DNA of 64,000 nucleotides, from positions 16,153 through 80,152 of the IMG/VR virus record IMGVR_UViG_3300046821_000134. The stretch is one strand, 5' to 3'. Under the pieces are notes generated by a model. It made no database searches. It had not been told where the DNA came from and saw only the letters and a program-made list of their open reading frames with translations. A program made the position numbers and the translations under genes. Positions within the stretch are counted from its first letter, which is position 1, and each line of letters begins with the position of its first letter. Positions 2,206 through 62,895 of this stretch are shown in pieces. The stretch comes from a virus.

Positions 2206-2436
2206 ATGGAATACAGACTCCCTAACTGGGACACTACGTTTGATGTCAACGACTTCTACGCAGCATGGGATGCCTTGAGTGTTCCATTTGAGAAAATGGG
2301 ATTCAAACTGGTTTCTTACAGCCCGGGGCTTTGTTTCTCTTATGGACAGTATGGGAGAACGTTTGAGATTCCTGCTTGTGTGGCGGCTATTATTGTAGAA
2401 AGATTACAGGGTGTTGTGGATGTGAAGGAGGGGTGA
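2206..2436 (+). CDS. hypothetical protein
   Basis: 76 aa, tightly packed in the operon. Confidence 0.7.
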   Translation: MEYRLPNWDTTFDVNDFYAAWDALSVPFEKMGFKLVSYSPGLCFSYGQYGRTFEIPACVAAIIVERLQGVVDVKEG

Positions 2437-3110: not shown

Positions 3111-5215
3111 TGGAAGGCTACGTGTTCGATCTAGAGGGGGACAATCTGTACTTGGGTTGTAAGAAGATTTGGTATGGGAATTTCAAATCATTAGACGGCA
3201 CACGTTCCCTTTCAGTTCATCCGTTCCAAGAAGGAAACGAAGAAGCACAAGGTAAGATTTTGGAGTGGATTCATAGCTTCTCTGACAAAGCCTTGTGTTG
3301 CTCCTTTAATGGTTTATCTTACGACCACTTTGTCTTGTGGAGACTTCTGGGCCTTAAACCAACTGTTGGTAAAGGTGGTAAGGATTATTTTGCAGATAAA
3401 GAAGTTATATTTTTTGATGCTTTCTACAATGCTCAGTTTCTTAATCCGAACTTGCCAGAGTTCTCTCTTGCTGCGTTGTCGCGTGGATCAAGTGCAGAGA
3501 AGATTGATTATCGTGAAAGGCTTGTTCAAGCAGGAGCAATGATTGGAAATGAGGTCAAGGGTTTCGAATTTTCTTTCTACAATCCTTTAATGGATGAATA
3601 CTGCGACGCAGACGTTGAAGCAACACGCGTACTTGTTTTGAAACAACTTGCTGAGCTTAAAGAGTTATATGGGGATGTTCGCCCCCCATCGCTGAGAATG
3701 GGTACAAAAGCCCAATTCCTCATGAAAGCCCAAGAACACACAGGGCACGGCTTTGATGAAAAATTGGCAGCAGAGGTAATGATCAGTTTGAACAAGGACA
3801 TGGAAGAACTTGAGTCAGAGGTTCTCCCTAAGCTTCCGCCACGCCCTTTGAAGAAAGGGGAGGAAGCAGAGTACTCAATGCCCGCAAAACCTTACAAGAA
3901 GGATGGGTCTTTTAGTAGTCATATGGAGAACTTCATTTCCAAGCACTCCGGTGTGGTTAAGTCTAAAGACACTGTTGAGTTCTTCGGTAAGGACTATAAG
4001 GTTGAGGCAAAGAAGATTTTAGATATAAAGCTTCCAATGGTTATTGGGGATCAACAGCATTTCAAAGAGTGGCTTCTCAGTCAAGGGTGGGTGCCTACTT
4101 TCTATAATTTTCAACGTGGCCCAGATGGTAAGCCTGTTAGGGACGACAAAGGTAACTACATCGAAACATCTCCGAAGTTGCAGGAACAAGGGGTGATCTG
4201 CCCAAATCTTCTTGAATTAGAGGGCGACGTAGTTAAGGAGGTTGTTAAGTTTTTATCTTTAAGGAATCGCAGGTCTGTGCTGCAAGGTTGGTTGGATAAT
4301 CCCCGTCTAAAATACGATGGAAGACTGCCAACAGCTTCCTCAAAAATTGCCAACTCTCACAGGCAATGTCACGCAGTGGTTTGTAATGTTCCTCGTGCTG
4401 GGGGTCAGAGTCTGTATGGGGACGAGTTTAGGAGCCTGTTTTGTGCAGAGGGAGAGAACCTTATCGCTGCTGCTGATGCAAGTGGGCTAGAGCAGCGTGT
4501 TGCTGGACACATGACTTTTAAGTATGATGAAGGCAAGTACGCGGAGGAGTTGCTGAAAGGGGATGTACACTCCAAGGTTGCATTTGCAATGTTTGAAAGA
4601 GAACTGGCTGCCTTAGGGTTCTCCCCAGACAAGTTTGACAAAGAGGACAGAAGATTTAAGCCATTTAGAAGCAAAGCTAAAACAGCAGGATATGCTATAC
4701 TGTATGGTTGTTCCCCAGCAAAGCTAGCCAAAACCCTCAACAAACCAGATAAGGACGGAAAACGCCTGCACAAAGCATTCTGGGACGCAAATCCCGCAAT
4801 GGCGCAGTTGGTTGAGAATATTGGAAAGTATTGGGAAACAAAAGGTAAAAAGACATTTGTGCCTGCTGTGGACGGTAGGTTGCTGAGAACTCGTTCAAAG
4901 CATTCTCTTTTAAATAATATCCTACAGAGTTTGGGGGCAATCGTAATGGACTTAGCTTGTTGTTTCATGGATGCAAAACTTGGTGAAATGTTTATTGATG
5001 AACTTGGGAGACCATATTACCTGTACAAAGGCAAACAGGTCAGGCGTGTCGTCTACTATCACGACGAGTATTCTTTTGAGTGTGCCCCAGAGGTAGCGGA
5101 GGAAGTGAAGAAAATGGCAGAAAACAGCATTGCTGAAGCTGGAAGATTCTTTAAACTAAACGTAGAGTTGGCTGGAGAGGGGAAGGTGGGTAAATCATGG
5201 CAAGCGGTGCATTGA
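3110..5215 (+). CDS. polA: family A DNA polymerase with 3'-5' exonuclease (T7-like)
   Basis: ExoI FDLEGD, ExoII FNGLSYD, ExoIII YCDAD; motif A ADASGLEQR, motif B RSKAKTAGYAILYG, motif C YHDE. Confidence 0.95.
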   Translation: MEGYVFDLEGDNLYLGCKKIWYGNFKSLDGTRSLSVHPFQEGNEEAQGKILEWIHSFSDKALCCSFNGLSYDHFVLWRLLGLKPTVGKGGKDYFADKEVIFFDAFYNAQFLNPNLPEFSLAALSRGSSAEKIDYRERLVQAGAMIGNEVKGFEFSFYNPLMDEYCDADVEATRVLVLKQLAELKELYGDVRPPSLRMGTKAQFLMKAQEHTGHGFDEKLAAEVMISLNKDMEELESEVLPKLPPRPLKKGEEAEYSMPAKPYKKDGSFSSHMENFISKHSGVVKSKDTVEFFGKDYKVEAKKILDIKLPMVIGDQQHFKEWLLSQGWVPTFYNFQRGPDGKPVRDDKGNYIETSPKLQEQGVICPNLLELEGDVVKEVVKFLSLRNRRSVLQGWLDNPRLKYDGRLPTASSKIANSHRQCHAVVCNVPRAGGQSLYGDEFRSLFCAEGENLIAAADASGLEQRVAGHMTFKYDEGKYAEELLKGDVHSKVAFAMFERELAALGFSPDKFDKEDRRFKPFRSKAKTAGYAILYGCSPAKLAKTLNKPDKDGKRLHKAFWDANPAMAQLVENIGKYWETKGKKTFVPAVDGRLLRTRSKHSLLNNILQSLGAIVMDLACCFMDAKLGEMFIDELGRPYYLYKGKQVRRVVYYHDEYSFECAPEVAEEVKKMAENSIAEAGRFFKLNVELAGEGKVGKSWQAVH

Positions 5216-11541: not shown

Positions 11542-11814
11542 ATGAAATACTACAAACTTTGTGGAAACTCTCTCGATTCTATTTATGCCCTTGATCGAGA
11601 GAATAATGTTTGCAGCGTTATTGAGTTCTGGAAGAACAACGGGACAGTGACAACAGTGAACATGGCCCTCTTCTCTGCCGCATTAGCAAGCTACGATGTA
11701 CAAGCTGCAGGGGAGATTGAAACATACGAGAAGATTTACAAATCCGAATGGGAGTTCTTCAAGCGTACAGCACGAGACTTCCTGAAGATCATGGGAGAAG
11801 TGGATGCGGAATAA
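11542..11814 (+). CDS. hypothetical protein
   Basis: ATG after AGGAGG; track ORF begins at 11515. Confidence 0.7.
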   Translation: MKYYKLCGNSLDSIYALDRENNVCSVIEFWKNNGTVTTVNMALFSAALASYDVQAAGEIETYEKIYKSEWEFFKRTARDFLKIMGEVDAE

Positions 11815-12334
11815 GGGTGTTGTACGCGTCTCTACGCGTGATTTGAAGCGGGTTGATAAGCTGGCCCACCTGAGTGAGTTTGAATTGATTTCTCCTGCGA
11901 ACCAAGGGCTTGTAGAGGCATTCCTGTTCGTGATGGGCATTGATGTAGACCGTGTTGTACACATTCAGGCATGTAACCATCGTGACCTGTCCAATAAAAC
12001 TGGAATCGGCTATAGCTTTGTTGGGCATGAACGTACAGACAGACTGTGGCTGTCTCGAACACAATCAACACTGGAGGCGCGTATCGAGGCTGCACGAGAC
12101 CCCGATCTGCAAGGGGATATGATTTACATGAGCACAGAAGGGATTCCTTGGAACAAATTCCGAGAGATGTGCGACAAGGCACGAGGGCAAGAAGGGACAA
12201 CTAAGAATGTTGCCCCAATGGAGCCTGTAGAAGATTTTGCAGAGAGTCTGCAAATGATGAAGCTGCTACGAGATATTCAGATTGAAATTCGTGGTGGAAT
12301 CAATACAATCGAAGAAGACATGTTGTTTGTCTAA
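11804..12334 (+). CDS. hypothetical protein
   Basis: 176 aa, overlaps the upstream gene. Confidence 0.75.
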   Translation: MRNKGVVRVSTRDLKRVDKLAHLSEFELISPANQGLVEAFLFVMGIDVDRVVHIQACNHRDLSNKTGIGYSFVGHERTDRLWLSRTQSTLEARIEAARDPDLQGDMIYMSTEGIPWNKFREMCDKARGQEGTTKNVAPMEPVEDFAESLQMMKLLRDIQIEIRGGINTIEEDMLFV

Positions 12335-34699: not shown

Positions 34700-34728
34700 A
34701 TTATAACATAAGAACCTTGTTTTGTCAA
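34700..34728 (-). promoter_or_regulatory. consensus sigma70 promoter for head genes
   Basis: TTGACA-N17-TATAAT on the minus strand. Confidence 0.85.
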
Positions 34729-34775: not shown

Positions 34776-37313
34776 TTAAGACGGGATAGGCCCTTCTCTT
34801 GTTAAAGAGATGCCTGAGAGGGATACGTTAGGAGAGGATTGATACGCTTTAGCGAGAATCTTCAAGGCGCTTGATGTAGCATCAACCTCGTCATCGTGAA
34901 TCTTTCGCATAGACTCAGGGGTGCCTTTGAACATCTCAAGCGTTTCAAGCCACTCATCATTCCATGCCCCGACCACGATCTTCACTTTACCTGCTTCTGC
35001 AAGCTGGCAGAATGGGAGGAACCTTTGTAGCTTACCGCTCCAGCCACTCATCTTATCAACTTTGACGATAAGCCCTTCCTCAGAGAGAACTGTTACCATG
35101 TGGTTTGCCACGTATTTACCTGCTGCACCAGCGTCCTGTGGTACAACAATAGGAACGTGTAACCCATCTCTAGTTGCCTGAGTGATGATGCGCTCAAGCA
35201 CTGCATGAGGCTTCGCATGGAACTTGACCATATCAATCACGTAATACGTCCCAAACCTGTCACGCCCCATTAGCATTCCAACCGTGGCATCAGGATTACG
35301 ATTAACCTCAGACTTCTCTGTTGCTGCCAAGTCGTAGGCTCTAACAAGGTCGGTATCCACCGGTACCTGATCCATTGTTATCAGATCGCACCAAGACCGG
35401 TTAAACATGTTCTGTCCAACATCGATATTAAGCCATGAGCCATGCAGGTATTTCAGTTGGTTGCGCTTAGGCTGTGCAAGGAGGCTTGGAAGGTAGGTGT
35501 TGTTGCGTGGAGGGAGTAGGTAGGGGTTGTCGTAGACCGTAGAAGGGATAAATCTGAATGACTTAGCAATAAAGAGCTTACCTTTTGGCACGTCGCGTAT
35601 CTGTGCTGCAGTAAGCCCCTTCCCTCTAATCATGCCGCGTGGGGCGCCATGAATCTCAAAACACTCCTCTTCTGAGTCTGCCCACAAAACCTTGCCATCA
35701 AGAACAACCATCCAGCGAACCTTGTCTTCTGTTCCCGGCTTTGGCACGCCATCTTCGTCTAGGCAGTAATCTACCCACTCCCTTAGAAAGCTATTATGAT
35801 TTGGGTTAGCTGTTAGGATAACTTGTTCTTTGTATTTTGAGTGGGCACTACGAACCCGAGACAACAAGAATAAAATTACATCCAAAGACCAATCATCGCC
35901 GGCTTCGTCCACGCATAAACGGCTAGCTTGGAGGCCCTGGAGGCTACCAAGCACACTTGCATCTGGGATACCAAGGAACTGTATCTCGGCCTGAGATGGG
36001 AACGTCCAGATCAGTCCAGTCTTATTAAAGTCACCGCCAAAAGGTTGGTAGAATTGTTTAGATTCATTCACAATGCCACCGGGGCGTGTAAGCTCAGGTC
36101 TTGATTTACGCGCAATCACGATGCGCTCATTTGGATCATCCAAGTATGCCAACATCTTCATCAAAATTGTTGACGTATTGTGTGTCACAATGTAGTTTGT
36201 TGTAATATACAGCTTTTCGTCTCCTGATATACTAATACAAGACGCTTCTCCTTTTCCTATTGGCTCTATGCACTCAACGCGTAACCCCACGTGTTTGGAT
36301 ATTGTTCTGTCTTTTTTCGCAGGAAGTCTGAAAAGACTCCCTTGGTTCATTCCCCTCACATACAGTTTATAAACAATGGAGCAAATATGCTTTACACCAT
36401 CTTTGACGTAACTTCCCTGCTTGGTGGAGAGCTTTGCAGTGTACCCAAGTGAGTGAAGGATTTCCTTAACCTGATGAGCCATTCGTTCGGAGGTTGTGTC
36501 ATAATATACGTTACCTCTTTTACATACATAGCCGTCTGTATCAAACAACCCCTGTAGTAAGTCAAAACGATTCTTGATAGAGCCTAACATATATTCTTCA
36601 GGAATGAATTTGGTCTGAGAAAGGGTTCCTCTCAGGCCAAGGCGTTCCATTTCAGAAAATGTGCCAAGAAGAGTTTTTGTAACAGATGTTGGTCTGCCCT
36701 CATTAAGAGTAAAGGCGCCGGGAGTAATCCCTTCCCGCTTTAGTTCTTCCCACACAAATTCACTACTGTTAGTTACAGCCGGGCTTCCTGTTTTTGGTAT
36801 ATGGCCGTCACCTAGTATAACCCCCATCGCATAAGGGGAGATAACGTGTTCTTTGTGTTCGGAATGTTGTACTGGCTTTATAAGAGGTATGATCGGAAGT
36901 CTTTTACGAATTCCTTTTGTCCCTTCGTATTTAGAGGTTACTTTCAACATTTCAAGCGTATTTGTAATCTTACTGTTAACTTGCCCGTCACCTGCCTCAT
37001 GCCATTTCCATAGATGTTCTCCACAACAGTCTATGATTCTTCCATCTTGAAAACGAACACGGTATAAGTCAACAACCCCCTGAGGAAATACGCCGGTAAC
37101 AGTCTCAACCGTGTTATCAGGAGTAATTACTTTGTCGCCAACCTTAATATCTTCAATATTTACGAACCCGTTTACAGTTAAAACTTTCTCTCCATGTCGA
37201 AGAGCTTTCCCGCCGCCAGCACCACCACCCACAAGGATAATGTCTTCTTGTGCTTCTAGCATCATTCTTTGCTTTACTGACGCCGGGCCGAACACCTTAT
37301 TCTCAGCCATCAC
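34776..37313 (-). CDS. terL: terminase large subunit, intein-containing
   Basis: Walker A GGGAGGGK/T split by the intein, Walker B LCVDEA, TANP, nuclease RAYDLAAT and HDDEVDA. Confidence 0.95.
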   Translation of the reverse strand: MMAENKVFGPASVKQRMMLEAQEDIILVGGGAGGGKALRHGEKVLTVNGFVNIEDIKVGDKVITPDNTVETVTGVFPQGVVDLYRVRFQDGRIIDCCGEHLWKWHEAGDGQVNSKITNTLEMLKVTSKYEGTKGIRKRLPIIPLIKPVQHSEHKEHVISPYAMGVILGDGHIPKTGSPAVTNSSEFVWEELKREGITPGAFTLNEGRPTSVTKTLLGTFSEMERLGLRGTLSQTKFIPEEYMLGSIKNRFDLLQGLFDTDGYVCKRGNVYYDTTSERMAHQVKEILHSLGYTAKLSTKQGSYVKDGVKHICSIVYKLYVRGMNQGSLFRLPAKKDRTISKHVGLRVECIEPIGKGEASCISISGDEKLYITTNYIVTHNTSTILMKMLAYLDDPNERIVIARKSRPELTRPGGIVNESKQFYQPFGGDFNKTGLIWTFPSQAEIQFLGIPDASVLGSLQGLQASRLCVDEAGDDWSLDVILFLLSRVRSAHSKYKEQVILTANPNHNSFLREWVDYCLDEDGVPKPGTEDKVRWMVVLDGKVLWADSEEECFEIHGAPRGMIRGKGLTAAQIRDVPKGKLFIAKSFRFIPSTVYDNPYLLPPRNNTYLPSLLAQPKRNQLKYLHGSWLNIDVGQNMFNRSWCDLITMDQVPVDTDLVRAYDLAATEKSEVNRNPDATVGMLMGRDRFGTYYVIDMVKFHAKPHAVLERIITQATRDGLHVPIVVPQDAGAAGKYVANHMVTVLSEEGLIVKVDKMSGWSGKLQRFLPFCQLAEAGKVKIVVGAWNDEWLETLEMFKGTPESMRKIHDDEVDATSSALKILAKAYQSSPNVSLSGISLTREGPIPS
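36177..37205 (-). mobile_element. class 3 intein (343 aa) with LAGLIDADG homing endonuclease
   Basis: starts ALRHGEKVLT (Ala1) and ends IVTHN before extein Thr; block B HLW, block F ASCI, block G THN; GVILGDG and LQGLFDTDG endonuclease blocks. Confidence 0.93.
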
Positions 37314-37546
37314 CCTTCCTCCAAATCAAACTTAAAATACATCCCCTTATTGCTACTATTCACAGCAATGATGGGCAACTTCCTCGCATTGGCAATCAAT
37401 GCCAATAGCTCAATAAATTCCTTAGAACTCTTCCCCACAACATCTACGCAATCCAATGAGAGAGAATCTAGCTCGCCGTCCTCATCAAGATAGGCCCAAC
37501 GCAGGGAGTATTTCCCACGATAAGAAACTACACGAATGTTCTTCAC
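37310..37546 (-). CDS. hypothetical protein
   Basis: 78 aa, AAGGA RBS, GTGA overlap with terL. Confidence 0.7.
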   Translation of the reverse strand: MKNIRVVSYRGKYSLRWAYLDEDGELDSLSLDCVDVVGKSSKEFIELLALIANARKLPIIAVNSSNKGMYFKFDLEEG

Positions 37547-37571
37547 TTACATTTCCTTTACGAATAAATGG

Positions 37572-37608
37572 AACAAAAATAACGCCCAAAGGATTTCTCC
37601 TTGGGCGC
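37572..37608 (-). terminator. intrinsic terminator closing the non-coding unit
   Basis: minus strand CGCCCAAGGA-GAAA-TCCTTTGGGCG-TTATTTTTG. Confidence 0.8.
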
Positions 37609-38142
37609 ATTGAAACACTATATCGGAAAGGATAAGTGAGAGGAGAAACTTAGAGATTATCTGTCCCAACGCATCTCACGCCGGGAGGGTGTTTGCTTCA
37701 ACACCTAAGCTCCACTGTAAGCAACAGCAGAGGAATACGCGTAACTCTTTAGGAGAAGGGTTTTACGCATTGGTTGTGGGTGACCGACTCGTCAGCGGGG
37801 TGCTTCCCCAGACAGGCGTATAGTCGATTAGCTCAGTCTCGCATACACGCAGTGCGAAACATAGTTACAGCGTCCTGTAACGATCCTCTTTTACCCACAA
37901 GGAAGTAGTCTATCCGAGGATGTCTTAACACTTGTGGGCTAGGACTTCCTGTTCTGACTGCTTCCTTGTAGGTGCTGGTTACTAATCCAGCGATAGGCTT
38001 TCGGGCTACCAGCTCCACTGTCCCGCCTGTGTCTTATTACGCATTTCAGGTCTTTGCGTACAACATCCCCGGAGGTCAAAGGAGGTAACAAATCCCTCCG
38101 GGGAACACATCACAATGTGTCTTTTCTCATCTCTCACTGTAT
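37572..38142 (-). ncRNA. candidate large structured ncRNA (~570 nt), family not recognised
   Basis: bounded by a perfect promoter and a terminator; no credible ORF; 5'/3' closing helix; more than ten stems with G-U wobbles mostly favouring the minus strand. Confidence 0.75.
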
Positions 38143-38148
38143 ATAGAC

Positions 38149-38177
38149 ATTATATACCCGGGATGTGTCTTTGTCAA
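38149..38177 (-). promoter_or_regulatory. consensus sigma70 promoter
   Basis: TTGACA-N17-TATAAT on the minus strand. Confidence 0.88.
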
Positions 38178-38185
38178 GCTATTTA

Positions 38186-38587
38186 TTAAACATTTTTCAG
38201 ATGGTCAATGTCCAACACACCATCTCCTGTGGTAGCATCTTCTCCGTCAATGTTTTGAATAACACTTGGAGAGAATGTTACACGAGGCTTCCCATCTTCC
38301 TCTTCTGGAGTTATTGTCTTCATGCCAATACGGACAAGCTGTTTCTCTTGCAGTTCTGCTCTGACATTGGCAATACTAGCTGCAAGGTTATTCTTTGCAC
38401 TCCTATCAATATTCTCTGACTGCAACGTAAGCACCTTAGTAATCAAATCAGCCTTTATCTTGATATCAGCCTCAGGGTCTTGCAGGATTGCAATAGCAGC
38501 ATTATAGGCCATCTTGGAGAGCTTATCAAGGTTCTTGATCAGCTTTTTCTGCTCTGCTGTGATGGCTTTTGCGTCAATTTCCTTCAT
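38186..38587 (-). CDS. putative terminase small subunit
   Basis: 133 aa helical protein upstream of terL; call is positional. Confidence 0.55.
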   Translation of the reverse strand: MKEIDAKAITAEQKKLIKNLDKLSKMAYNAAIAILQDPEADIKIKADLITKVLTLQSENIDRSAKNNLAASIANVRAELQEKQLVRIGMKTITPEEEDGKPRVTFSPSVIQNIDGEDATTGDGVLDIDHLKNV

Positions 38588-44714: not shown

Positions 44715-44840
44715 GGCTTTCCTCAAGACATTAAATGGGTTGTGTAAAAATTGTTCAAGGGCGTTCTTCCCATTCAAGTCGGAAGATTCCAGTGGCAGTG
44801 CAGTTTCATAGCACTTCCTTAGTATTTGTCTATATGTACT

Positions 44841-44869
44841 ATTATACCATGAGAATTGTTGAAAGTCAA
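44841..44869 (-). promoter_or_regulatory. sigma70-type promoter (divergent pair, leftward)
   Basis: TTGACT-N17-TATAAT. Confidence 0.8.
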
Positions 44870-44881
44870 TAGTGTTTGTTG

Positions 44882-44910
44882 TTGATTTTTGTATGGGTGG
44901 ATGTTATACT
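44882..44910 (+). promoter_or_regulatory. sigma70-type promoter (divergent pair, rightward)
   Basis: TTGATT-N17-TATACT with extended TG. Confidence 0.75.
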
Positions 44911-44999
44911 ATAAAAGTAGATACCAAGATTCCGAGAATCTATGCCAGATTGTTAGCATGTCTTAAGCATAAAAAAGAGGAGAATATCTCGTCTAAATT

Positions 45000-45014
45000 C
45001 CTCTGTAAGCCTTG
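45000..45014 (+). repeat. 15-bp box, copy 1
   Basis: CCTCTGTAAGCCTTG; exact reverse complement at 53336-53350. Confidence 0.8.
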
Positions 45015-45136
45015 GTGGGCAAGGGAAGTGTTCCTTTTCACGGTTCACTATCCTTGTATAGGGTATAGTAGTGTAGTCTATAAGGTATGGTAGTATCTAT
45101 AAGTATCTCTATAATAATTAAGAGAAGGAGAGGGAA

Positions 45137-57140: not shown

Positions 57141-57253
57141 AAGCCATTTCCTTCCATGAATGCTCCAAGGAATTCCTTCTGAAATAGAGAGGGGGCTATG
57201 AGGGTAGCTTGAGAGGGGAATAACGTGTAGAAGGCTGGAGGGATTTAAGGAGG

Positions 57254-57284
57254 GGAGCTATCTTGCGATAGCTCCTTTTGTTTT
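57254..57284 (+). terminator. intrinsic terminator
   Basis: GGAGCTATC-TTGC-GATAGCTCC-TTTTGTTTT. Confidence 0.85.
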
Positions 57285-58186
57285 GCCTACAGCAAATGTA
57301 TAAAAATTATTTTTGTAGGAATGAAATGGGGAGGGCTTGTTGGAAGCTAAGAGGTAAATATCGTAGGGAGTGGATGAATGGAGGCTAGATGGGAAAATGG
57401 GCAGTAGTGTGAGCAGGGCTTAACCGACCCTCCCGTCCCCTCTGGCACGCTTTTTGCTTTTTTAAACTATCCAGCACGTCCTACCCCTTCGCCTTCCCCT
57501 CGCCCAGCACATCTCCCCATTCCCCAGCTCATCGCTAACCCATCCTTGCCCTATTATTAGCAAGCCATGCCCTGCCCGTTACCCTATCAGCCTGATAATA
57601 ACTCGACTGACTCTAGCGGATTTTATGTCAACTTGCTCATGCCCTGTAATGGCTCCCTATTAGCTAACTCTCCTCGCCTTATTGTTAGCAATAGCATTGC
57701 GTCCTGCTAAGGCTATCCCCTCGGATACTGTGTGCATCATGCAGGCATCTTCATCGATCTACTGCTATCATCGTTATACAACTATGTAGTAATATAGTGA
57801 TACAACTGTATAGTAGTACAGGATTATCATAGTATTAACCAGTACTAGGCTAACTTGTGGGTGTTAACTAACCTTACGTAGTCGAGACACACCCCCATTC
57901 CCGCTCTAAACCCACGCAATTATGCGCCCTGCCAAGGATGCCCACTAGATTCTCGGTATGCTTACAGGATACCCAATAACCTGCCTTGGCAGCATCCACC
58001 TGTAGCTTCGCTGTACAACTGATCCCCTTGCCTGCCCTTCCCTAGCATGCCTCAACAGCATGCAATATAAGCCCTTGGCTGTGTTATATAGCGCCTAAGC
58101 TATTCCCCTATAGATGGCCTCCCATTCGTGCATTGTAAGCCGCTCTGATGTGTTCTAGCTTGGCAGAATACCATGCCGTAGACGTG

Positions 58187-58211
58187 ACAAAGCCAGCCTA
58201 AGGGCTGGCTT
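58187..58211 (-). terminator. intrinsic terminator ending the early (-) unit
   Basis: AAGCCAGCC-TAAG-GGCTGGCTT. Confidence 0.75.
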
Positions 58212-58231
58212 GTTGTTAGGCTTGATAGTAT

Positions 58232-58402
58232 CTAGTCAAGGCACACGTACCGCCCGTCAATCCACTGCCAGATGTGACGACTCCGGCCCTTCGTCCATAC
58301 ATACTCTGCAGCCACGGCGCTGCAGCATTGCAGACATACTGCCCGATCTGCTGTCGTCCTTACTTGAAACTTAGCCGTGAACGTTGTTTTCCAGTCTCTC
58401 AT
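58232..58402 (-). CDS. small hypothetical protein (56 aa, not in ORF track)
   Basis: AAGGAGG RBS, open frame ending before the terminator. Confidence 0.55.
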   Translation of the reverse strand: MRDWKTTFTAKFQVRTTADRAVCLQCCSAVAAEYVWTKGRSRHIWQWIDGRYVCLD

Positions 58403-58413
58403 TACTTGCCTCC

Positions 58414-59274: not shown

Positions 59275-59466
59275 TTAAACCCCTACACCGTGAGCGCTGA
59301 TCCCGGCACGATAGGCAGCATCGTTTGATGCATCCTGACGGAAGATACAAACACCTTCTTCATCATTTGCCCATACAACAAAGGCGAGTTGCCACACAAA
59401 AACTGCGGCAGCAGGAAGACTCTTTCCAGTGGCTTTCATCACTGCTTCATTGATTGTGTTGCGCAT
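59275..59466 (-). CDS. hypothetical early protein
   Basis: 63 aa, AAGGA RBS. Confidence 0.6.
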   Translation of the reverse strand: MRNTINEAVMKATGKSLPAAAVFVWQLAFVVWANDEEGVCIFRQDASNDAAYRAGISAHGVGV

Positions 59467-59541
59467 GATTCTTTATCCTTCAAAAAACGTTGTTCATGTA
59501 AGGATTATAGACATGTTAGCGATTGAGTATGTAATGACTAT

Positions 59542-59575
59542 CCCTAATAGGGAGAACCCTGATAGGGCTGCCCTG
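59542..59575. promoter_or_regulatory. operator-like palindrome array
   Basis: CCCTAATAGGG and CCCTGATAGGG 15 bp apart; related array at 61570-61610. Confidence 0.6.
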
Positions 59576-59581
59576 CACAAA

Positions 59582-59782
59582 CTAATTCATTATCACCCGG
59601 CTATGCGTGAAGCCCTTTTCACCCATCAGTATACCCACCTTGGCTAATGCCTCCTGCAGCGTGCCGAAATACGTGTCGCCATAATGAAAGATTGCCAGCG
59701 TCTTACCCATGTACAGGCAAACAAGAAAACCGCCTTTTGGATTAAAACCGAGTGTATCGTCTCTAACTGTCAACGTTTTCAC
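59582..59782 (-). CDS. hypothetical early protein
   Basis: 66 aa, AAGGAG RBS, GTG start. Confidence 0.6.
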   Translation of the reverse strand: MKTLTVRDDTLGFNPKGGFLVCLYMGKTLAIFHYGDTYFGTLQEALAKVGILMGEKGFTHSRVIMN

Positions 59783-61559: not shown

Positions 61560-62895
61560 GAATTATTTTATAGGGAGAATCCCTAACAGGGTTTTCCTAA
61601 TGATAGCCCTGCCTATTTACGTCAACAGACGCGCACGCGTAATAGCTTCATAAGAAGAATCTAGCAAGCTATTGATTATCGATTACTGATAGCGAAATAC
61701 AATTAGTCTTTCATCCTGCCATCCTCTACAATCTAAAAATCAAATTCACTTTTGAGGCCAAGTCTCGCCCGGAGTATGTAGAAGCTAAACCTTCCTGCCC
61801 TCTAAGGTTTGCAAGCCCGACCGGCCTAAGCCGCTGGAAAGGCTAACAAGCCCCTTTTGCCCTACGGATAGCGGCAGGCTATCGATTTGGCTGGATTTCG
61901 ATAGCCATTCCCTATTCGGATGCGATTTGGAAGACCCCCTCATCAACAGGGTCTTGGATGATTGTGCTGCGCACATTTTTCAGGATTTATGCCCCGTGAG
62001 GATATGGGACTAAAAATGGAGATGTATATTTCCCATTGGAAATTCCCGCCACGATTTTTCTGTAGAATGCCTCCCCTATTATTTATTTTTCTTCATCCCT
62101 TGACATTTTATCTCCACCTCTCCTGACACTTTTACACTTTTTGTCTAATCTGTCCATTATTCCCTGAGATTCTTGTCGCTTGTAGGCGACAGATTAGTTG
62201 TCAATCTTATCCGGGTATTATTCATCTTGGTAGCAGATGGGTGGCTGTAGGATTGGTCAATATACTTGACGTATCAAGGTGTTTAGGCTGCAGCGGGCTG
62301 TTATGGATGCAGCTCTCTGTCCCTATTTATCTCTTGATATATATCAAATTATGTCTCAGCTACATAATTATGTGTTTTCTACTAATATCTAACCAAGTAT
62401 AACAGAAATCAAGTAGATTTTACACTAATAAATGGCAACCATATTGACCTAATTAGTTAATGAGGGGTGCGTTGTTACGTCTCATGGGGCAAACAAATAG
62501 GCCGCCAGAGCCCTCCTTTTATAGAGAACCCTGACGGCCATAGTTACATCAAGCACTAATTATTGTAGCTACACAAATCCTGTCAACACTCTGTAGAAGC
62601 AGATTCCAGAAATTTGAAATGTGTAAATTCAGAATCTGGAAATTGAAAATTTAGGATTTGGTTATTCAAGCTCGTCATTGTCTATAAGGAAGTACAGAGC
62701 GTCAATTTCCTCTGCGGCTACTCTGTTCTCCTCTTCGTTACAGAGAATTAAATCCTCTAACAGATTGATTCTCTGAATAGCTTCTTCTTTTGTTGTAAGT
62801 ACCATCATACCCTCCTTTCCAAAAATTTGAAGGCAACATTTTGTTCCATCTTATTGCACTAAAATGCAAGATTTGTGTTGATAAGATGGATGGTT

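What the first reader, a model, noticed from the sequence alone, without database searches (positions are those of the whole stretch)
37572..38177. Stand-alone ~570-nt structured ncRNA gene between the terminase subunits
Seen: a perfect TTGACA-N17-TATAAT promoter (38177-38149, minus) and an intrinsic terminator (37608-37572) bracket about 570 nt with no credible ORF in an otherwise densely packed genome. The first transcribed bases (AGUGAGAG-au-GAGAAA, 38138-38123) pair with UUUCUC-CUCUCACU (37648-37635), closing a ~490-nt domain. Inside are ACAGGCG/CGCCUGU (closing a multi-branch junction), an 18-bp helix ACCUACAAGGAAGCAGUC/GACUACUUCCUUGUGGGU, the stems GUUACAG/CUGUAAC, GUUUCGCA/UGCGAGAC, GCUGG/CCAGC, CUCUGCUGU/ACAGUGGAG and UCCCGGCG/CGUUGGGA, and a repeated 11-mer ACAGUGGAGCU. 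G-U wobbles mostly favour the minus strand, matching the promoter. Known: phages carry large ncRNAs of unknown role (ROOL, GOLLD), and phi29 uses a packaging RNA. Inference: this is an abundant phage RNA, possibly of a new class. Its position beside terS/terL raises a packaging or late-regulatory role.
Basis: partly seen in the sequence, partly recalled or inferred. Interest (0 to 1): 0.88.

Follow-up and report, generated by a model that had tools for sequence, protein, structure and literature searches.

The report
New modular structured phage RNA gene
An uncultured freshwater phage carries a roughly 530-570-base non-coding RNA gene with its own promoter and terminator; its folded shape is conserved in related phages, it matches no described RNA family, and it sits where those relatives keep their tRNA genes.

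Summary
Window 38177-37572 (minus strand) has a perfect sigma-70 promoter, an intrinsic terminator and no ORF under any tested code. It folds far better than shuffles (z -6.9). Rfam 15 gives no hit.

I found homologues in eight other metagenomic phage contigs. Compensatory changes support the long 15-18-bp helix, the 5' hairpin, a GNRA-type hairpin and four 3' hairpins: 96-98% of cells pair, 8 of 15 and 18 of 32 pairs change on both sides, and 0 of 500 shuffles reach this.

The family is mosaic. Members keep different subsets of modules. The more distant clade follows the RNA with one to three tRNA genes. One 95%-identical allele has an IS605-type TnpB element in place of about 320 nt.

The most constant parts are two single-stranded pyrimidine loops, one of them resembling the anti-Shine-Dalgarno sequence.

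My best reading is a new family of large phage ncRNA at the head of a tRNA island. It is analogous in context to ROOL and GOLLD but belongs to neither, and it probably acts on translation.

Expression was not shown. A packaging role and the "between terS and terL" label are unsupported. The scan noted this same stretch before, in another window of the same genome.

The parts
38149..38177 (-). sigma-70-type promoter; both hexamers match the consensus, 17-nt spacer; inferred transcription start near 38141
   Evidence: Equivalent promoters stand in front of every homologue.
38123..38138 (-). 5' strand of the closing helix P1
   Evidence: Pairs with 37635-37648 in the MFE and centroid. 8/8 + 6/6 pairs in the window, kept in L027 through a G-U change, and an 8/8 equivalent in L022. 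Not found in L046 by inspection.
38066..38104 (-). 5' hairpin: 10-bp stem and 19-nt loop carrying the anti-Shine-Dalgarno-like 7-mer at 38079-38085
   Evidence: (5 of 10 pairs change on both sides). The 7-mer is present near the 5' end in 9 of 10 RNAs at this locus, about 0.004 expected each.
38038..38060 (-). hairpin 3 (6-bp stem, 11-nt loop), specific to the window clade
   Evidence: identical in L027.
37812..38030 (-). central multibranch domain closed by 38024-38030 with 37812-37818
   Evidence: Closure helix present with other letters in L022 and L029. The 3' partner was remodelled in L027.
37991..38011 (-). GNRA-type tetraloop hairpin
   Evidence: The loop is GAAA in the window, L027, L022 and L045, and GUAA in L046 and L047. 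3 of 6 pairs change on both sides.
37974..37991 (-). short hairpin with a conserved 8-nt loop
37893..37973 (-). long helix (17 of 18 pairs) with a hypervariable tip at 37911-37955
   Evidence: On a plain MAFFT alignment of 8 sequences, 96.7% of cells pair and 8 of 15 pairs change on both sides. The tip is replaced by unrelated sequence in L027 and in run X10 (joint 37903/37965).
37836..37881 (-). two peripheral hairpins specific to the window
   Evidence: Replaced by different hairpins in L027 and absent in L029.
37655..37790 (-). 3' domain of four hairpins: A 37737-37770, B 37710-37732, C 37688-37705, D 37664-37686. The invariant 8-nt pyrimidine tract in the loop of A lies at 37752-37759.
   Evidence: Each homologue folds independently into the same four hairpins. 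Model R1. 98% of cells pair and 18 of 32 pairs change on both sides, 0 of 500 shuffles reach this. Loop tract in 8 of 8 sequences.
37649..37663 (-). linker that acts as an insertion hot spot
   Evidence: A 265-nt insertion in L027, a 117-aa ORF in the G001 allele, and loose ends in runs X10 and X12.
37635..37648 (-). 3' strand of the closing helix P1
37572..37608 (-). intrinsic terminator. It lies about 25 nt upstream of the start of the 78-aa ORF (37546) that overlaps terL.
   Evidence: Terminator-like hairpins with U tracts lie just before the small ORF in L023, L025, L029, L045 and L046, by inspection.

Best explanation
This is a host-RNA-polymerase-transcribed, terminator-bounded non-coding RNA gene of about 530-570 nt. 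It belongs to an undescribed, modular family of structured RNAs. The family opens the stable-RNA (tRNA-island) transcription unit that lies between the lysis genes and the small-ORF/terL packaging genes in a group of uncultured freshwater and wastewater phages. Their terminase is distantly related to those of Felix O1-like and TaPaz-like phages.

Shown: the promoter and terminator signals; the absence of an ORF; an exceptional fold; homologues in eight other contigs; compensatory changes in most helices; tRNA genes directly downstream in the more distant clade; no match to any Rfam family; a mosaic make-up; an allele disrupted by an IS element.

Inferred: the RNA is made as a discrete, stable molecule and acts in trans. 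In size and genomic context it is the counterpart of ROOL and GOLLD RNAs.

The mechanism I consider most likely (about 0.25-0.3 on its own) runs as follows. The working parts are the two invariant single-stranded pyrimidine loops: the anti-Shine-Dalgarno-like 7-mer in the 5' hairpin and the 8-nt tract in hairpin A. The covarying helices serve as a scaffold that displays them. The loops would pair with purine-rich ribosome-binding sites, or bind a translation factor, and so shift translation during infection.

The terminator also lowers read-through into terL, which has no promoter of its own.
For: - Signals and fold.
- No known family.
- Homologues: L027, L022, L029, G001/L035, L039 (85-88), and L045, L046, L047.
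- Covariation, long helix: 96.7% of cells pair and 8 of 15 pairs change on both sides, on a MAFFT alignment that was not fitted to the structure. Controls with the partner strand slid by one to three columns pair only 30-50%.
- Covariation, 3' domain: 98% paired, 18 of 32 pairs change on both sides, 0 of 500 shuffles reach this.
- Covariation, 5' hairpin: 5 of 10 pairs change on both sides.
- Covariation, hand alignment of six helices: 96.2% paired against 84.2% in shuffles.
- Loops: the hairpin A tract is identical in 8 of 8 sequences apart from one C/U position, while its stem covaries. The anti-SD-like 7-mer lies near the 5' end in 9 of 10 RNAs at this locus, including L023 and L025, which share nothing else.
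- tRNA genes follow the RNA in L022, L039, L045, L046 and L047.
- Literature: ROOL and GOLLD occur in phages near tRNA islands; GOLLD has a conserved 3' and a variable 5' region, tRNAs in its linker and ribosome binding in pull-downs; ROOL is abundant but non-essential (bioRxiv 10.1101/2024.12.08.627333; PMC5737381).
Against: - No transcript was shown. RNA-library contigs also cover the upstream ORF and bridge the promoter.
- The homologues fall into only two clades, and most come from one metagenome, so there are few independent events.
- The 3'-domain alignment was fitted to the model.
- The mosaic make-up argues against one compact obligatory fold of the ROOL/GOLLD type: L047 lacks the whole 3' domain, L039 and L045 keep only hairpin A, and G001 keeps only the 3' domain.
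- L027, the closest relative, lacks the anti-SD-like 7-mer in the loop.
- Complementarity to ribosome-binding sites is generic and proves no target.
- The closing helix was not found in L046.
Confidence: 0.55

Rival explanations
1. It is a cis-acting leader of the packaging operon. RNA polymerase starts at the strong promoter, and the 5' hairpin or the whole fold modifies elongation. That could be processive antitermination of the HK022 put or rRNA-leader type, or protection from Rho. The terminator at 37608-37582 would then set how much transcription reaches the 78-aa ORF and terL.
For: No promoter lies between the terminator and the 78-aa ORF/terL. The order promoter, structured RNA (plus tRNAs), terminator, small ORF, terL recurs in all relatives. 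The one element common to all RNAs at this locus sits 15-145 nt from the inferred 5' end (under 70 nt in all but L045), where put-like elements act. The IS-disrupted allele keeps the promoter, the 3' domain and the terminator.
Against: About 500 nt of covarying helices is far more than any known antitermination element needs. tRNA genes lie between the RNA and the terminator in the more distant clade, as expected for a stable-RNA operon. The IS allele has lost the 5' hairpin yet persists. No Rfam leader or antitermination family matched.
Confidence: 0.2
2. It is a non-functional mosaic: an intergenic hot spot where decayed tRNA genes, hairpins and remnants of mobile elements accumulate. The observed pairing would only reflect inherited hairpins.
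For: Extreme modularity, helix tips replaced outright, insertions at 37649-37663, a TnpB element inside one allele, and an intein or group I introns in the neighbouring terL all show heavy traffic of selfish elements here.
Against: Helices keep pairing through many changes on both sides, while two loop tracts stay invariant across clades. That pattern indicates purifying selection on an RNA. No tRNA-like match was found in the window RNA by Rfam at E<=10, and the whole-window Rfam search at gathering score found no tRNA gene. The promoter is conserved in every member.
Confidence: 0.12
3. It is a highly divergent member of the GOLLD or ROOL family, beyond the reach of the Rfam models.
For: Same size range, phage origin and tRNA-island context. 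In the window clade and the G001 allele the 3' part is better conserved than the 5' part, as in GOLLD.
Against: No hit to either model, even at E<=10 with permissive filters, in the window or in five homologous loci. L047 lacks the 3' domain altogether, unlike GOLLD's universally conserved 3' region.
Confidence: 0.05
4. It is a packaging RNA that works with the terminase or portal, as phi29 pRNA does.
For: Only its position upstream of terL.
Against: The phage has a conventional large terminase. An allele lacking about 320 nt of the RNA exists in nature. Members differ in which domains they keep. There is no match to the pRNA family. The upstream ORF is not shown to be terS.
Confidence: 0.03

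Closest known systems
ROOL RNA (Rfam RF03087)
   Same: Large (average 581 nt) structured ncRNA of phages and prophages, often beside tRNA genes, with no partner protein gene nearby. Reported as abundant yet non-essential. That fits the dispensable, IS-disrupted allele seen here.
   Different: No covariance-model match. Known ROOL hosts are mainly Firmicutes and rumen or gut organisms, whereas these are freshwater and wastewater phages, one binned with a betaproteobacterial MAG. ROOL has one conserved multi-junction fold; here members keep different subsets of modules.
GOLLD RNA (Rfam RF01998)
   Same: Phage-borne and beside tRNA islands, with tRNAs sometimes inside its linker. It has a variable 5' part and a conserved 3' part, and is reported to bind ribosomes. 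Here there is an insertion site in the linker before the 3' closing strand, and tRNA genes lie directly downstream in relatives.
   Different: No model match. The RNA here is shorter. The 3' domain is not universal (L047, L039, L045).
Lambda-type late leader (PR' to tR', 6S RNA) and HK022 put RNAs
   Same: A strong constitutive promoter, an untranslated structured RNA and a terminator stand in front of late genes. A conserved hairpin lies close to the 5' end.
   Different: Those leaders are about 70-200 nt and precede the lysis genes. No Q-like or put-like element was identified. tRNA genes are embedded in the unit in relatives.
phi29 pRNA (Rfam RF00044)
   Same: A phage ncRNA near packaging genes.
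   Different: 174 nt, and part of a protein-primed packaging system without a conventional large terminase. No model match. The RNA here is dispensable in a natural allele.

Membership tests
ROOL (RF03087) | Match to the family covariance model (consensus of multistem junctions and pseudoknots) | tested here: not met
   No hit at gathering score over the whole window, nor at E<=10 on 37300-38500, nor at E<=5 in five homologous loci.
ROOL (RF03087) | Phage or prophage location, often next to tRNA genes; length about 580 nt | tested here: met
   Viral contig. tRNA genes directly downstream in L022, L039, L045, L046 and L047. About 530-570 nt.
GOLLD (RF01998) | Match to the family covariance model | tested here: not met
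GOLLD (RF01998) | Universally conserved 3' region with a variable 5' region | tested here: inconclusive
   The 3' domain is the best conserved part between clades and survives in the IS allele. L047 lacks it, and L039 and L045 keep only hairpin A.
phi29 pRNA (RF00044) | Match to the model; phi29-type packaging machinery | tested here: not met
   No hit. A conventional large terminase lies next door.
Group I intron (RF00028) | Match to the model and interruption of a host gene | tested here: not met
   No hit in the RNA, while the same library finds group I introns in the terL of L022, L023, L027, L029 and L035. The window's terL is a complete intein-bearing ORF that aligns end to end with phage TaPaz terL.
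tRNA or decayed tRNA array (RF00005) | Cloverleaf match | tested here: not met
   No tRNA hit at E<=10 in 37300-38500 and no tRNA at gathering score in the whole window.
Processive antitermination RNA (HK022 put type) | Promoter-proximal hairpins that make RNA polymerase resistant to downstream terminators | not testable with these tools
   Only position is known: the conserved hairpin lies 35-75 nt from the inferred start, with a terminator downstream.

The most novel reading that the evidence does not exclude
A phage-encoded scaffold RNA displays mimics of the 16S rRNA anti-Shine-Dalgarno tail on covarying helices. It titrates ribosome-binding sites or a translation factor to re-programme translation late in infection. 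Like ROOL and GOLLD, it may assemble into a higher-order RNA particle. On this reading it would be a third, independent class of large RNA associated with phage tRNA islands, and the first with a readable functional motif.
Probability: 0.2. Interest if true: 0.85.

Novelty: new variant of a known kind. Interest (0 to 1): 0.62.

Why it matters
Very few bacterial or phage RNAs longer than 500 nt have conserved structure. The two phage-associated classes, ROOL and GOLLD, still have no known function. A third, unrelated family in the same genomic niche would suggest that a large structured RNA beside the tRNA genes is a recurrent phage strategy. This family sits at the head of a phage tRNA island in a different host range.

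It also offers handles the others lack: two invariant single-stranded pyrimidine loops, one resembling the anti-Shine-Dalgarno sequence, and natural deletion and mosaic alleles showing which modules can be lost. That makes the question of function directly testable.

Tried and rejected
- Intron in terL: rejected. The 845-aa ORF is a complete terL with an intein and aligns over 99% of its length with TaPaz terL.
- Recoded ORF: rejected.
- Cultured relatives: blastn in distant mode against 50,697 phage records found no match.
I therefore could not fetch the contigs of the closest terL relatives P0003-P0010 from ENA and Logan.
- The single metagenome scan gave one locus, L027.
- An alignment of the small-ORF homologues was too divergent for a locus scan.
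- Expression: RNA-library contigs (X15, X16) cover parts of the RNA, but also the upstream ORF, and one bridges the promoter. This gives no evidence either way.
- L023, L025, L024 and L026 have structured gaps in the same position (z -9.2 and -3.6 for L023 and L025). They show no sequence or model similarity, so they are not counted as members.
- Model R1 was not found in 100 genomes related to the MAG that holds the IS allele. The IS is single-copy there, so this gives no host assignment.
- Kissing loops: the loops of hairpins B and C are complementary in the window but not in L027 or G001, by inspection. Dropped.
- Antiterminator or RBS pairing: the hairpin A loop is complementary to the terminator's 5' half in the window, but to non-homologous sites in L022 and L029, by inspection. 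Not claimed.
- G-U strand test: uninformative.
Later work used coordinates only.

Full report
**Observation.** On the minus strand the scan finds a promoter that matches both sigma-70 consensus hexamers with a 17-nt spacer (38177-38149). It also finds an intrinsic terminator with a 10-bp stem at 37608-37582 and a U tract running to 37572.

The 618 nt between 37547 and 38164 are one of only six stretches of 250 nt or more in the 64-kb window without an ORF of 75 aa or more. Reading TGA, TAG or TAA as sense does not open a frame across it.

The 569-nt RNA folds to -209.7 kcal/mol against -165.1 +/- 6.5 for dinucleotide shuffles (z -6.9).

The opposite strand folds nearly as well (z -6.0), and the G-U counts are 13 against 14.

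**Surroundings.** The window is an 80-kb IMG/VR viral contig with terminal repeats. Upstream lie an endolysin, a 121-aa ORF of unknown function, an Rz-like spanin and a 133-aa ORF of unknown family. Downstream lie a 78-aa ORF that overlaps the start of an 845-aa large terminase carrying an intein.

That terminase aligns over 99% of its length with the intein-bearing terL of Acinetobacter phage TaPaz. The RNA is therefore not an intron splitting terL.

Neither small ORF matches any family. 'Between the terminase subunits' is unproven.

**Known families.** Rfam 15 gives nothing at gathering score in the whole window. At E<=10 on 37300-38500 it gives only four short chance-level hits, none to ROOL, GOLLD, OLE, pRNA, introns, tRNA or RNase P. 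The same holds for five homologous loci. No cultured phage record matches.

**Homologues.** I found relatives through terL and through conserved RNA motifs. Eight further contigs hold a homologous RNA at the same place:
- L027 (terL 84% identical).
- A 95%-identical allele in a contig binned with a Uliginosibacterium MAG (G001/L035).
- A second clade: L022, L029, L039, L045, L046 and L047.

Every copy is preceded by a near-consensus promoter.

**Structure is conserved through compensatory change.**
- Long helix: on a plain MAFFT alignment of eight sequences, 96.7% of cells pair and 8 of 15 pairs change on both sides. Sliding the partner strand by one to three columns drops pairing in the tested helices to 30-50%.
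- 5' hairpin: 5 of 10 pairs change on both sides.
- 3' domain: each sequence folds on its own into the same four hairpins. A covariance model built from the window clade alone recovers the other clade. On the resulting alignment, which is fitted to the model, 98% of cells pair and 18 of 32 pairs change on both sides, with 0 of 500 shuffles reaching this.
- Hand alignment of six helices: 96.2% paired against 84.2% in shuffles.
- Caveat: there are only two clades, most members come from one metagenome, and parts of the alignments were fitted to the structure.

**The family is a mosaic.**
- Helix tips are swapped for unrelated sequence in L027 and in run X10.
- The linker before the 3' closing strand (37649-37663) carries a 265-nt insertion in L027, a 117-aa ORF in the G001 allele, and loose ends in two further runs.
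- L047 has only the 5' hairpin and central module and then runs straight into a tRNA gene.
- L039 and L045 keep only hairpin A of the 3' domain.
- L046 has two long-helix modules.
- In the G001 allele, about 320 nt (from roughly RNA position 31 to 350) are replaced by a 426-aa TnpB of the IS605 family. The promoter, 3' domain, closing strand and terminator remain.

So the complete RNA is not essential, and a single compact obligatory fold is doubtful.

**Context.** In the second clade the RNA is followed by one to three tRNA genes (Thr, Trp, Gly). A terminator-like hairpin then stands just before the homologue of the 78-aa ORF and terL in the loci where I looked for one (L023, L025, L029, L045 and L046).

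L023 and L025 have other, unrelated structured RNAs in the same position, and L025 also has tRNAs there.

The locus is therefore the head of a stable-RNA (tRNA-island) transcription unit. In the window clade the tRNAs are absent and the RNA ends at the terminator. terL has no promoter of its own and must depend on read-through.

**What stays constant.** Two single-stranded pyrimidine tracts are the most conserved letters.
- The 8-nt tract in the loop of hairpin A (37752-37759) is identical in 8 of 8 sequences except for one C/U position, while its stem covaries.
- The 7-mer at 38079-38085 reproduces the core of the 16S rRNA anti-Shine-Dalgarno tail. It lies near the 5' end in 9 of 10 RNAs at this locus, including L023 and L025 (about 0.004 expected each). 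L027 is the exception.

An earlier first-reader note on this genome (e1-6031877) had pointed to the same loop. I tested only its conservation.

**Interpretation.** The best-supported reading is a stand-alone structured ncRNA of a new, modular family. It occupies the niche that ROOL and GOLLD occupy in other phages: large, next to tRNA islands, dispensable, with tRNAs at or in a linker, and with reported ribosome binding for GOLLD. It belongs to neither family.

The mechanism I favour is that covarying helices display pyrimidine loops that pair with ribosome-binding sites or bind a translation component. This is inference only.

The main rival is a cis-acting leader or antitermination element for the packaging operon. 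Decay products, a very divergent GOLLD or ROOL, and a phi29-like packaging RNA are less likely, for the reasons given under the rivals.

**Expression** could not be established. RNA-library contigs overlap the RNA but also the neighbouring ORF and the promoter.

**Verdict.** This is a real, conserved, structured and apparently undescribed phage RNA. Its function is open, its known distribution is narrow, and its make-up is mosaic. Interest is moderately high.

Noticed in passing
window 34776-37313 (-); L027 2618-2853; L022 4263-4458; L023 5268-5477; L029 3489-3719; L035 2406-2632: The large terminase gene is a hot spot for selfish elements. The window copy carries an intein (Hint plus homing-endonuclease domains, residues about 26-383). 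Close relatives, including the 95%-identical G001 allele, instead have a group I intron in terL; in L027 and L035 it lies near the 5' end.
   Followed up: partly
L035 177-1457 (G001:C15:14530-15880): An IS605-family TnpB gene (426 aa, high G+C) sits inside the RNA gene of a natural allele. It is driven by the RNA's promoter, and its 3' end abuts the start of the RNA's 3' domain. It is single-copy in that MAG.
   Followed up: partly
L022 2286-2355; L029 about 4150-4222 (-); L039 about 11745-11815 (-); L045 about 2247-2317 (-): A conserved tRNA-like element follows the RNA in the second clade. By eye it has a 7-bp acceptor-like stem, a long central arm and a T-arm-like hairpin. Neither ARAGORN nor the Rfam tRNA model calls it.
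   Followed up: no
L023 2908-3365 and L025 1212-1715: Unrelated but strongly structured RNAs (z -9.2 and -3.6) occupy the same position behind consensus promoters. They share only the anti-Shine-Dalgarno-like 7-mer with the window RNA.
   Followed up: partly
window 57141-58413, 61560-62840, 44778-45136, 59351-59683, 1-418: Five further stretches of 330-1280 nt have no ORF of 75 aa or more. I did not examine them. Other first-reader notes mention a structured RNA at the window's start and long leaders near 45000.
   Followed up: no
window 34700-34728 (-): A second promoter with a 12/12 consensus match (plus an extended -10 TG) lies between terL and the 495-aa ORF downstream of it, in the position where relatives encode the portal. 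terL and the 78-aa ORF lie between a terminator and this promoter and have no promoter of their own.
   Followed up: no
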